Source: a virus (Duplodnaviria; Heunggongvirae; Uroviricota; Caudoviricetes). From it: 37,768 nt of DNA. Both the position numbers and the translations under genes were made by a program. Below, one piece after another: positions 212 to 2,900 of this stretch. A model generated the notes under the pieces. It had not been told where the DNA came from. It saw nothing but the letters and a program-made list of their open reading frames with translations, and did no database searches. How positions within the stretch are numbered: position 1 is the stretch's first letter; each line of letters opens with the position of its first letter. The DNA is taken from IMG/VR virus record IMGVR_UViG_2526164599_000010. One strand, 5' to 3'.

Positions 212-772
212 AAACAAAGATAAATTTACGCAAACAATAGGTGCTTGCCGCTCTTTTCATGGTGCTATTAGCACAGGTGCAGGAAACTGGACGACGGCAC
301 AATTGATTGAATGGCTGGATTCTCAAGGGGCATTCAATCACCCATACTGGATGTGCAAATGTTCATGGTCATACGGCAATAATAAAATTATTACCGATAC
401 TGGCTGTGGAACTATTCATCTTGCAGGTTGCGTTATTGAGGTTATGGGTAATAAAGGAGCCATGACCATCCGTGTAACCACCCCGAGCACTTCCAGCGGT
501 GGCGGAATTACTAACGCTCAATTCACTTATATTAATCATGGTGATGCTTATGCTCCTGGCTGGCGACGAGACTACAACACGAAAAACCAGCAGCCTGCAT
601 TTGCTTTAGGGCAAACAGGAAGCACTGTCGGAAATGATAAAGCTGTTGGCTGGAACTGGAATAGCGGGGTCTATAACGCAAATATTGGTGGCGCAACAAC
701 ATTAATCCTACATTTCAATATGAATACGGGGAGCTGCCCTGCTGTACAGTTCCGCGTGAATTACAGGAACGG
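156..772 (+). pseudogene. S': Alternative tail-fibre variable part S'v, 5' fragment (interrupted by IS insertion)
   Basis: Open frame (phase 0) from 72 to the IS junction at 772; same phase relative to gix as Sv on the other arm; track ORF 303..800 is this frame read through into 9 IS-encoded codons. Continues in frame at 2901 once the IS and one ACGG copy are removed. Confidence 0.8.
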
Positions 773-822
773 TGTCAGCGCCAATGATATAAGACAGTAA
801 TTCACCATTTGGATTGTCCGCT
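773..822. repeat. IS21-family left terminal inverted repeat region
   Basis: TGTCAGCGCCAATGAT...CACCATTTGGATTGTCCGCT matches the reverse complement of the right end (TGTCAACGCCAAGAT...CGCCATTTTTAATGTCCGCT). Confidence 0.7.
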
Positions 823-873
823 CCACCCAACATGTTGTTTCCTTAAGGTTCCTACACCACAAAGGGAACACTC

Positions 874-2046
874 ATGCTGAGCAGAGAGGATTTTTACATG
901 ATAAAGCAAATGCGCCAGCAAGGTGCGTATATTGTTGATATTGCCACTCAGGTTGGTTGCTCTGAGCGGACCGTCAGACGGTACCTGAAATACCCGGAAC
1001 CTCCGGCCAGAAAAACACGCCACAAAATGGCCAAACTCAAGCCGTTCATGGACTATATAGATATGCGTCTGGCTGAGAACGTCTGGAACGGCGAGGTCAT
1101 CCTGGCGGAAATCAAAGCGATGGGTTATACCGGTGGCCGTTCCATGTTGCGCTACTACATCCAGCCCAAACGTAAGATGCGGCCATCGAAGAAAACGGTT
1201 CGCTTCGAAACTCAGCCCGGTTACCAGCTACAGCATGACTGGGGAGAAGTTGAGGCTGAGGTTGCCGGGCAACGATGCAGGGTTAACTTCGCGGTTAATA
1301 CGCTGGGGTTCTCACGTCGCTTCCATGTCTTCGCGGCACCAAAGCAGGATGCTGAACATACCTATGAGTCACTGGTCCGCGCCTTTCGCTACTTCGGCGG
1401 TAGCGTGAAAACCGTGCTGGTCGATAACCAGAAAGCCGCAGTTCTGAAAAATAACAATGGGAAGGTGGTGTTCAACTCCGGGTTCCTGCTGCTGGCCGAT
1501 CACTATGGCTTCCTGCCACGGGCCTGCCGTCCACGAAGGGCCAGAACCAAAGGTAAGGTTGAACGGATGGTGAAATACCTCAAGGAAAACTTCTTCGTCC
1601 GGTACCGCCGGTTCGACAGCTTCGCCCATGTTAACCAGCTACTGGAGCAGTGGATGGCTGACGTTGCTGACAGGCGAGAACTTCGCCAGTTCAGGCAGAC
1701 ACCGGAACAGCGCTTCACGCAGGAACAGGAGCATCTGCATCCGCTGCCGGGTACGGACTTCGATACCAGCTATTTCGATATCCGTCATGTCTCCTGGGAT
1801 GGCTATATCGAGGTTGGCGGGAACCGTTACAGCGTACCGGAAAGCCTGTGTGGCCAGCCGGTATCAATACGGATCTCGCTGGATGATGAACTACGGATCT
1901 ACAGTAATGAGCAACAGGTAGCATCGCACCGTCTCTGTTCGGCTGCATCCAGCTGGCAAACCGTGCCGGAGCATCACGCCCCACTCTGGCGGCAGGTCAG
2001 TCAGGTGGAACACAGACCGTTGAGTACGTATGAGGAGCTGTTGTGA
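874..2046 (+). CDS. istA: IS21-family transposase IstA
   Basis: 390-aa ORF with N-terminal HTH-like region (MLSREDFYMIKQMRQQGAYIVDIATQVGCSERTVRRYL) and integrase-core region; stop overlaps the istB ATG (TGATG at 2044..2048). Confidence 0.9.
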   Translation: MLSREDFYMIKQMRQQGAYIVDIATQVGCSERTVRRYLKYPEPPARKTRHKMAKLKPFMDYIDMRLAENVWNGEVILAEIKAMGYTGGRSMLRYYIQPKRKMRPSKKTVRFETQPGYQLQHDWGEVEAEVAGQRCRVNFAVNTLGFSRRFHVFAAPKQDAEHTYESLVRAFRYFGGSVKTVLVDNQKAAVLKNNNGKVVFNSGFLLLADHYGFLPRACRPRRARTKGKVERMVKYLKENFFVRYRRFDSFAHVNQLLEQWMADVADRRELRQFRQTPEQRFTQEQEHLHPLPGTDFDTSYFDIRHVSWDGYIEVGGNRYSVPESLCGQPVSIRISLDDELRIYSNEQQVASHRLCSAASSWQTVPEHHAPLWRQVSQVEHRPLSTYEELL

Positions 2047-2839
2047 TGCATGAACTGGAGACACTGCTGAGTCGTCTTAAAATGGAACATCTGGGCTACC
2101 ACGTTGAAAGCCTGCTGGAGCAGGCGGCCAAAAAGAACTGAACTACCGCGAGTTCCTGTGCATGGCGTTGCAGCAGGAATGGAACGGGAGGCATCAGCGC
2201 GGTATGGAGTCCCGGCTGAAACAGGCCCGCTTCCCGTGGGTCAAAACGCTGGAGCAGTTCGACTTCGGCTTCCAGCCAGGTATCGATCGTAAGGTCGTCC
2301 GTGAGCTGGCCGGGCTGGCGTTCGTGGAGCGTAGCGAGAACGTGATCCTGCTGGGTCCGCCCGGTGTGGGTAAAACGCACCTGGCAGTCGCTCTCGGGGT
2401 AAAAGCGGCGGACGCTGGTCATCGGGTACTGTTCATGCCACTGGATAAGCTGATCGCCACACTCATGAAGGCAAAACAGGAAAACCGGCTGGAAAAACAG
2501 CTACAGCAGCTTGGTTATGCCCGGGTACTGATACTGGATGAGATAGGCTATCTGCCGATGACCCGCGAGGAAGCCAGTCTGTTCTTCCGGTTGCTGAACC
2601 GTCGATATGAAAAAGCGAGCATCGTGCTGACATCAAATAAAGGGTTCGCCGACTGGGGAGAGATGTTCGGCGATAACGTGCTGGCAACGGCAATCCTGGA
2701 TCGACTGCTCCACCACTCAACCACACTGAACATCAAAGGAGAAAGCTACCGGTTAAAGGAAAAACGCAAAGCGGGAGTGCTGGCAAAAAACGCCACGCCA
2801 ATCAGTGATGATGAAATGGCGGAAAGCGGACAACATTAA
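2046..2839 (+). pseudogene. istB: IS21-family helper ATPase IstB, disrupted by a -1 frameshift in an A5 run (2130..2134)
   Basis: ATG at 2046 opens [30 protein letters not shown] then stops at TGA 2139..2141; the rest (ELNYREFL...[11 protein letters not shown]...IKGESYRL) is open in the adjacent frame to 2839. One extra A in the run would give a contiguous ~264-aa IstB. Confidence 0.75.
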
Positions 2840-2846
2840 TGACCAA

Positions 2847-2896
2847 TAGCGGACATTAAAAATGGCGAAAAACGGCCAATAATCTTGGCGTTGACA
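2847..2896. repeat. IS21-family right terminal inverted repeat region
   Basis: Reverse complement aligns with the left end 773..822; ends ...GTTGACA immediately followed by the ACGG target duplication. Confidence 0.7.
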
Positions 2897-2900
2897 ACGG

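What the first reader, a model, noticed from the sequence alone, without database searches (positions are those of the whole stretch)
769..2900. IS21-family element inserted in the alternative tail-fibre cassette S'v, with clean 4-bp target duplication
The S'v reading frame is open from the gix site to 772 and resumes in phase at 2901 (..FRVNYRNG | GIFYRSARDGYGFEVDW..). Between them sits a 2124-bp element with TGTCA...TGACA termini, imperfect ~50-bp terminal inverted repeats and an ACGG direct repeat on each side (769..772, 2897..2900). Removing the IS and one ACGG restores a single ORF ending ..INGTWYNAGSI, parallel to the S C-terminus. The insertion truncates S' and separates U' from its upstream gene by 2.1 kb, so the alternative host-range fibre set should be defective.
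Basis: seen in the sequence. Interest (0 to 1): 0.75.

Follow-up and report, generated by a model that had tools for sequence, protein, structure and literature searches.

The report
ISEc62 insertion in Mu-like S' gene
A known E. coli jumping gene (ISEc62, IS21 family) has landed inside the currently unused alternative tail-fibre gene of a Mu-like prophage, cutting off its receptor-binding end; it is real and cleanly documented, but an ordinary event.

Summary
Window 773..2896 is a 2124-bp copy of ISEc62 (IS21 family). It differs at two positions (99.9% identity) from 2125-bp copies that are identical to each other at nine E. coli loci. It has TGTCA...TGACA ends and a 4-bp ACGG target duplication (769-772 and 2897-2900). 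Other ISEc62 copies make 4-bp (7 of 9) or 5-bp (2 of 9) duplications.

Removing the IS and one ACGG restores an S' open reading frame. That frame aligns end to end with the Mu S/S' fibre in PDB 8JU3, with no gap at the junction. The same stretch is uninterrupted in 633 complete E. coli genomes.

The host element is a Mu-like prophage, about 98% identical to Mu, with every Mu gene homologue in the window intact. It sits in the G(+) orientation. After inversion, S' would end at native residue 380 of 486, followed by 8 IS-encoded residues.

The IS copy has a 1-bp deletion (A6 to A5) that frameshifts istB. The window begins at base 3 of a draft contig (GCA_000250375.2, AIHI01000017.1), so gin lies outside it. 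The first 129 bases are a contig-end copy of the constant S part, probably from G(-) molecules in the sequenced culture.

This is a known IS in a known system, so interest is low.

The parts
1..129 (+). Copy of the constant part of tail-fibre gene S (Sc, Mu S residues 123-165) at the contig end. It is an inverted repeat of 5581-5710 and has a 1-bp deletion after base 94 that puts it out of frame with S'v.
   Evidence: the window starts at base 3 of contig AIHI01000017.1
130..155 (+). gix recombination site next to S'v. It matches Mu gix at 25 of 26 bases and is identical to the partner site at 5555-5580.
156..772 (+). 5' part of the alternative variable tail-fibre segment S'v. In the interrupted state the frame runs on to a TAA at 798-800, adding VSANDIRQ.
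769..772 (.). Left copy of the 4-bp target-site duplication ACGG
773..2896 (+). ISEc62 (IS21 family), 2124 bp, in the same orientation as S'v
773..835 (+). Left terminal inverted repeat with repeated TGTCnGC motifs at 773 and 815
874..2046 (+). istA transposase, 390 aa and intact. It carries a private Q373R change (G for A at 1991).
2046..2141 (+). istB N-terminal fragment of 31 codons, ending at a premature TGA
2130..2134 (+). A5 run. It is A6 in all nine reference copies. This 1-bp deletion is the frameshift in istB.
2135..2839 (+). Remainder of istB (AAA+ helper ATPase) in the shifted frame. The longest ATG-initiated ORF is 2162-2839.
2813..2896 (-). Right terminal inverted repeat, with TGTCnGC motifs at offsets 1, 42 and 65 from the end
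2897..2900 (.). Right copy of the 4-bp target-site duplication ACGG
2901..3222 (+). 3' part of S'v (last 106 codons plus stop), 97% identical at protein level to the Mu S' C-terminus. The frame is closed upstream by a TGA at 2893-2895, and no ORF of at least 40 aa begins in this frame.
3225..3758 (+). U' tail-fibre assembly chaperone, intact at 177 aa and 97.7% identical to Mu U'
3762..3781 (.). G+C-rich hairpin between the convergent U' and U genes, terminator-like
3787..4314 (-). U tail-fibre assembly chaperone of the currently expressed set
4316..6076 (-). Currently expressed tail-fibre gene S, 586 aa. Its first 186 residues match Mu S at 97%, spanning the constant part Sc, the gix site and the start of Sv. 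The rest of Sv is a mosaic that is not Mu-like.
5555..5580 (-). gix recombination site at the Sc/Sv junction

Best explanation
A copy of ISEc62, an IS21-family insertion sequence, transposed into the S'v segment of a Mu-like prophage in an E. coli-type genome (draft assembly GCA_000250375.2). S'v is the silent, alternative tail-fibre variable segment inside the invertible G segment.

The event was a simple cut-and-paste style integration. IstA joined the two CA-3' ends of the element to target positions staggered by 4 bp, and repair of the stagger produced the ACGG duplication.

The prophage is assembled in the G(+) orientation, where Sc is fused to Sv and U follows. The insertion is therefore silent at present. 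If Gin inverts the segment, Sc would be fused to the interrupted S'v. The product would stop after native residue 380 plus eight IS-encoded residues. It would lack the C-terminal 106 residues that form the distal, receptor-binding end of the fibre. U' would lie 2.1 kb further downstream, behind the IS. G(-) particles should then be fibre-defective, so the alternative host range is lost.

The IS copy differs from the common ISEc62 sequence by one substitution in istA and by a 1-bp deletion in an A6 run. The deletion truncates IstB after 30 codons. As sequenced, this copy could move only with IstB supplied from another copy.

Shown: the identity and limits of the IS, the duplication, the empty-site reconstruction, the prophage identity and orientation, and the istB frameshift in the deposited sequence. 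Inferred: the defective G(-) fibre, the non-autonomy of the IS copy, and whether the segment still inverts.
For: IS identity
- 2124 of 2125 positions align to ISEc62 copies, with 2 differences.
- Nine reference copies are identical to each other and share the same termini.
- RefSeq annotates them as 'IS21-like element ISEc62 family transposase' plus 'helper ATPase IstB'.
- IstA scores 283 bits against NCBIfam transpos_IS21 and IstB 271 bits against IS21_help_AAA, both above cut-off. Pfam finds rve, Mu-transpos_C_2 and IstB_IS21.

Target duplication
- ACGG flanks both ends. This matches the 4-bp (7 of 9) or 5-bp (2 of 9) duplications at other copies.

Empty site
- The joined flanks align in one piece to the Mu, D108, SfMu and P1 S'/U' regions.
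- A 253-nt junction-spanning query is contiguous in 633 complete E. coli genomes, at up to 97.6% identity.
- Mu S' residues 3-222 and 221-328 map to the two sides of the IS.
- The reconstructed protein aligns to PDB 8JU3 at E = 6e-205 with an identical junction peptide.

Host element
- The window is 97-99% identical to Mu over about 31 kb, and every Mu gene homologue in it is full-length.
- Two identical inverted gix sites are present.
- Sc is joined to Sv in the assembly.

Truncated product: computed.

Role of the IstB N-terminal domain: it is needed for dimerisation and nucleotide-controlled assembly (PMC11208146).

Mu G(+)/G(-) fibre sets: gp49/gp50 against gp52/gp51 (PMC11915804, PMC11821841).
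Against: - Nothing contradicts the insertion itself.
- The source is a draft WGS assembly. The single-base istB deletion lies in a homopolymer, so it could be a sequencing error. Against that, about 50 Mu gene homologues in the same contig show no frameshift.
- gin is not in the window, so continued inversion is not shown.
- No experiment shows that the truncated S' is non-functional.
- The name ISEc62 rests on RefSeq annotation of near-identical copies, not on a direct ISfinder comparison.
Confidence: 0.93

Rival explanations
1. The IS was placed here by the assembler, through a collapsed or mis-joined repeat in a draft contig, and is not inserted in S'v in the real genome.
For: The source is a draft WGS contig. 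ISEc62 is often multicopy in E. coli, with up to 18 places per genome. The contig end 770 bp away already shows an assembly oddity.
Against: Both junctions abut the exact IS termini seen in nine other copies. They are flanked by a 4-bp duplication, and removing it restores a conserved protein residue for residue. A mis-join would not create a target duplication. This copy also carries a private IstA substitution found nowhere else in the gene index, so it is not a consensus of other copies.
Confidence: 0.02
2. The istB frameshift is a sequencing or assembly error. The IS copy is a fully intact, autonomous ISEc62 of 2125 bp.
For: The change is a 1-bp loss in a homopolymer (A6 to A5) in a draft assembly. 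Another single-base deletion lies at the nearby contig end.
Against: None of about 50 Mu gene homologues in the same contig is frameshifted. The same A5 allele occurs in an independent ISEc62 copy in the complete genome of E. coli AST262, where RefSeq marks istB as frameshifted. Real slippage at this run therefore does happen.
Confidence: 0.25
3. The insertion has been kept because it does something useful. For example, it could drive U' or downstream sequences from an outward promoter in the IS right end (a perfect TTGACA at 2891-2896), or it could disable a costly alternative fibre.
For: The IS terminus ends in TTGACA. U' is intact.
Against: No acceptable -10 hexamer follows at 16-18 bp, and the promoter scan found nothing at the junction and no more sites than in shuffled sequence. 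U' has no known role without the S' C-terminus. The junction was found in no other genome, viral or metagenome contig, nor in 5,426 complete E. coli genomes. There is therefore no sign of spread or selection.
Confidence: 0.03

Closest known systems
ISEc62 (IS21 family), as annotated in E. coli E24377A and many other E. coli chromosomes and plasmids
   Same: 99.9% nucleotide identity over the full length. It has the same termini, the same istA-istB organisation with a one-base overlap of the istA stop and the istB start (TGATG), and the same 4-bp class of target duplication.
   Different: One substitution (IstA Q373R) and a 1-bp deletion that frameshifts istB. The insertion site, in a Mu-like S'v, was not seen in any searched collection.
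Bacteriophage Mu G segment (Gin/gix invertible tail-fibre switch: Sc | Sv U / U' S'v)
   Same: The gene order and convergent arrangement are the same, and the 26-bp gix sites match Mu at 25 of 26. U' is 97.7% identical to Mu U', and the S' C-terminal part is 97% identical. The rest of the prophage is about 98% identical to Mu.
   Different: S'v is interrupted by a 2.1-kb IS. The expressed Sv is a different mosaic, giving a 586-aa S instead of 504 aa. gin, com and mom are not on this contig end.
Phage P1 C segment (Cin/cix; Sv' and U')
   Same: The S'v/U' DNA is 91.9% identical over 1.5 kb.
   Different: The surrounding genome is Mu-like, not P1-like.

Membership tests
IS21 family insertion sequence (ISEc62) | Transposase IstA with an HTH domain plus a DDE (rve) core, scoring above the family cut-off | tested here: met
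   NCBIfam NF033546 transpos_IS21 at 283.3 bits against a cut-off of 160. Pfam rve, Mu-transpos_C_2 and HTH_23 also hit.
IS21 family insertion sequence (ISEc62) | A second, downstream gene istB encoding the AAA+ helper ATPase, intact and coupled to istA | tested here: inconclusive
   The gene is present and recognisable: NF038214 at 271 bits against a cut-off of 200, and Pfam IstB_IS21. The TGATG overlap with istA is kept. However, the reading frame is broken after codon 30 by an A6-to-A5 deletion. The family architecture is met, but the functional gene is not met as sequenced.
IS21 family insertion sequence (ISEc62) | Imperfect terminal inverted repeats ending 5'-TG...CA-3' and built of repeated transposase-binding motifs (L1/L2, R1/R2) | tested here: met
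   The ends read TGTCAGCGCCAA...TTGGCGTTGACA. A TGTCnGC motif lies at offsets 1 and 43 (left) and at 1, 42 and 65 (right). The family description is taken from PMC10122671.
IS21 family insertion sequence (ISEc62) | Short target-site duplication of 4-5 bp | tested here: met
   ACGG lies on both sides. Nine other ISEc62 copies show 4 bp at 7 sites and 5 bp at 2 sites. The related IS5376 gives 5 bp in vitro (PMC10122671).
IS21 family insertion sequence (ISEc62) | Near-identity to the named reference element | tested here: met
   There are 2 differences in 2125 aligned positions against copies that RefSeq labels ISEc62. A direct comparison with the ISfinder entry was not possible with these tools.
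Mu-type G segment (Gin-invertible tail-fibre cassette) | Two inverted gix crossover sites bounding the segment | tested here: met
   The sites lie at 130-155 (+) and 5555-5580 (-). They are identical to each other, match Mu at 25 of 26, and none is expected by chance.
Mu-type G segment (Gin-invertible tail-fibre cassette) | A constant Sc outside the segment, with two convergent sets Sv-U and S'v-U' inside | tested here: met
   tblastn of Mu S, U, U' and S' against the window; colinear DNA match.
Mu-type G segment (Gin-invertible tail-fibre cassette) | An adjacent serine invertase gene (gin) carrying the enhancer | not testable with these tools
   Mu Gin, Com and Mom have no tblastn hit in the window. 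The contig ends 129 bp beyond the gix site, so gin would lie on another contig.
Mu-type G segment (Gin-invertible tail-fibre cassette) | Evidence that the segment actually inverts | tested here: inconclusive
   The contig end carries an Sc-gix-S'v junction (the G(-) arrangement), while the same contig carries Sc-gix-Sv at 5555-5710 (the G(+) arrangement). This is what mixed-orientation reads would give, but a real duplication cannot be excluded without the reads.

The most novel reading that the evidence does not exclude
The A5 allele of istB may not be a dead gene. The frameshifted run reads GCC AAA AAG AAC TGA. A -1 ribosomal slip on AAA-AAG would read GCC AAA AAG (-1) GAA CTG and reproduce the wild-type IstB sequence (AKKEL...) exactly. 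The same A5 allele occurs in an independent ISEc62 copy in E. coli AST262. It could therefore be a recurrent low-expression variant in which helper-ATPase supply, and hence transposition, is throttled by frameshifting efficiency.

A more modest reading is also not excluded. The IS-bearing G segment may still flip, as the contig-end G(-) junction hints. That would turn a host-range switch into an infective/non-infective switch.
Probability: 0.04. Interest if true: 0.4.

Novelty: new member of a known kind. Interest (0 to 1): 0.12.

Why it matters
The broader significance is small. This is a clean natural example of an IS knocking out the unexpressed half of a phase-variable host-range module. 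It illustrates that the silent cassette of an invertible switch is shielded from selection while the prophage stays in one orientation.

Three practical uses follow:
- Host-range predictions for this Mu-like prophage should count only the Sv/U set.
- The junction is a unique strain marker.
- Automatic annotation will split S' into meaningless fragments (165 aa plus an uncalled 3' part).

It opens no long-standing question.

Tried and rejected
- Exact search for the left IS junction gave 0 hits in genome contigs, viral contigs and metagenome contigs. A 241-nt junction query was spanned by none of 5,426 complete E. coli genomes. The insertion is therefore private to the source assembly, which was found instead by exact protein look-up.
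- Exact search for the frameshifted Sc' fragment in genome contigs gave 0 hits.
- A 5-bp duplication (AACGG, with the IS ending ...TGAC) was considered because the last IS base is A. It was rejected because nine other copies fix the terminus at ...TTGACA, and most of them have unambiguous 4-bp duplications.
- A composite transposon or a second IS end was considered. No other match to the IS terminus lies in the window within 2 mismatches, and the 3-mismatch matches lie in phage genes.
- An outward hybrid promoter at the right junction (TTGACA terminus) was considered. The scan found no usable -10 and no more sites than in shuffles.
- An Rfam scan of the whole window gave no family at gathering score.
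- Literature search for ISEc62 found only plasmid-annotation mentions. No paper on an IS in a Mu G segment turned up among the top hits.
- Search for the WGS accession AIHI00000000 in the paper library found nothing, so the strain name was not established.
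Full report
**What is there**

Window 773..2896 is a 2124-bp element. It begins TGTCAGCGCCAA and ends TTGGCGTTGACA, and ACGG lies immediately outside each end, at 769-772 and 2897-2900. It contains a 390-codon ORF at 874-2046, followed by an ATPase gene.

A megablast against 5,426 complete E. coli genomes gave full-length hits at 99.9% identity in many chromosomes and plasmids. All are annotated 'IS21-like element ISEc62 family transposase' plus 'IS21-like element helper ATPase IstB'. The reference copies are 2125 bp. 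Nine of them, taken from seven strains, are identical to each other and start and end at exactly the same bases as the window element.

The window copy differs at two positions:
- G for A at 1991, which changes IstA Q373 to R.
- Loss of one A from an A6 run, now A5 at 2130-2134.

**Family assignment**

IstA scores 283 bits against NCBIfam transpos_IS21 (cut-off 160). The IstB remainder scores 271 bits against IS21_help_AAA (cut-off 200). Pfam finds rve, Mu-transpos_C_2 and HTH domains in IstA, and IstB_IS21 in IstB.

The ends are imperfect inverted repeats that finish in TG...CA. They carry a repeated TGTCnGC motif at offsets 1 and 43 on the left and at 1, 42 and 65 on the right. This fits the L1/L2 and R1/R2 multi-repeat ends described for the family (PMC10122671).

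The nine reference copies have 4-bp target duplications at seven sites and 5-bp duplications at two. The ACGG duplication here is therefore typical. I considered a 5-bp reading (AACGG) and rejected it, because the other copies fix the terminus at ...GACA.

**The empty site**

Joining 1-772 to 2901-3800 gives a sequence that aligns in a single colinear piece to the S'/U' region of SfMu, Mu, D108, P88 and the P1 C segment, at 90-92% identity. A 253-nt query centred on the joint is contiguous in 633 complete E. coli genomes, at up to 97.6% identity.

At protein level, Mu S' residues 3-222 map to window 120-773 and residues 221-328 to 2896-3219, so nothing is lost or gained. The reconstructed protein aligns end to end with PDB 8JU3 chain A ('Tail fiber protein S, Tail fiber protein S'') at E = 6e-205. 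The peptide across the joint, FRVNYRNGGIFYRSARDG, is identical.

**Surroundings**

The window is a Mu-like prophage. It is 97-99% identical to Mu over about 31 kb, running from the c repressor at the right end of the window to gene S. Every Mu gene homologue in the window is matched full-length in one frame. The contig sequence is therefore of good quality.

Two identical 26-bp gix sites lie in inverted orientation at 130-155 and 5555-5580, each matching Mu at 25 of 26. In the assembly, Sc (6076 downwards, minus strand) is fused to Sv, followed by U. This is the G(+) state. S'v and U' (3225-3758, intact, Caudo_TAP) face them from the other side. The IS genes run in the same direction as S'v.

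**Consequences (inferred)**

After inversion, the Sc-S'v fusion would stop at a TAA inside the IS, giving 380 native residues plus VSANDIRQ instead of 486 residues.

The missing 106 residues are the most conserved part of S' (97% to Mu). They form the distal end of the fibre, the part that meets the receptor. In Mu the two fibre sets recognise different parts of LPS (PMC11821841; PMC11915804).

The downstream S'v fragment cannot be translated on its own. Its frame is closed by a TGA at 2893-2895, and no ORF of at least 40 aa begins in it. No junction promoter is apparent.

**State of the IS copy**

The A6-to-A5 change terminates IstB after 30 codons. The rest of the gene continues in the shifted frame from 2135. 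The IstB N-terminal domain is needed for dimerisation and nucleotide-controlled assembly (PMC11208146). An internally initiated product (2162-2839) would therefore probably be inactive.

The source is a draft assembly, so a homopolymer error cannot be excluded. Two observations argue for a real change:
- No frameshift occurs in about 50 phage genes in the same contig.
- The same A5 allele occurs in an independent ISEc62 copy in the complete genome of E. coli AST262. That copy is inserted in ypjA, differs from the window copy at five other positions as well as at 1991, and has istB annotated as frameshifted.

The exact IstA variant is found only on this contig in the public gene index.

**Source and the left end of the window**

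An exact protein look-up placed the window on NCBI GCA_000250375.2, contig AIHI01000017.1 (413 kb). The window begins at base 3 of that contig. This explains why gin, com and mom are absent.

It also explains an oddity. Bases 1-129 are a copy of Sc, identical to 5581-5710 apart from a 1-bp deletion after base 94. The contig therefore carries both an Sc-gix-S'v junction and an Sc-gix-Sv junction. One molecule with a single Sc cannot have both.

The simplest reading is that the contig end was built from reads of G(-) molecules in the sequenced culture. If so, the IS-bearing segment still inverts. A real duplication cannot be ruled out without the reads.

**Verdict**

The observation and the interpretation are correct. 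This is a routine insertion of a catalogued IS into a well-known phage module. The particular junction is not present in any other genome searched, so it is a new instance, but not a new kind of thing.

Noticed in passing
window 1-129 and 5581-5710: The first 129 bases copy the constant part of gene S in inverted orientation, identical apart from a 1-bp deletion after base 94. The contig therefore carries both the G(-) junction (Sc-gix-S'v) and the G(+) junction (Sc-gix-Sv). The window starts at base 3 of a draft contig, so this is probably a contig-end tip built from minority-orientation reads. If so, it hints that the segment still inverts.
   Followed up: partly
window 2130-2134: The istB frameshift (A6 to A5) recurs in an independent ISEc62 copy in E. 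coli AST262 (locus L011). The shifted run reads AAA AAG. A -1 ribosomal slip there would restore the exact wild-type IstB sequence.
   Followed up: partly
window 4316-5519 (minus strand): The expressed variable fibre part Sv is not Mu Sv. S is 586 aa against 504 aa in Mu. The variable DNA is a mosaic: about 82% identity to P2-like (Peduovirus) fibres in one part, about 77% to Yersinia Mu-like phages in another, and 95% to P2 over the last 221 nt.
   Followed up: partly
window 24639-24922 (minus strand; ORF about 24731-24901): About 285 bp lie between the gp27 and gp28 homologues with no counterpart in Mu. They hold a small 56-codon ORF (MKNNYKAQLISAHKK...).
   Followed up: no
window 33061-33569 and 30151-30444: The early-region segments that correspond to Mu gp6/gp7 and the gp13/gp14 boundary do not align to Mu at megablast level. 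This looks like ordinary mosaic replacement in the semi-essential early region.
   Followed up: no
window 37766-37768: The window ends exactly on the stop codon of the c repressor homologue (Mu position 339). The Mu left end (attL, about 338 bp further) and the host flank are therefore outside the window.
   Followed up: no
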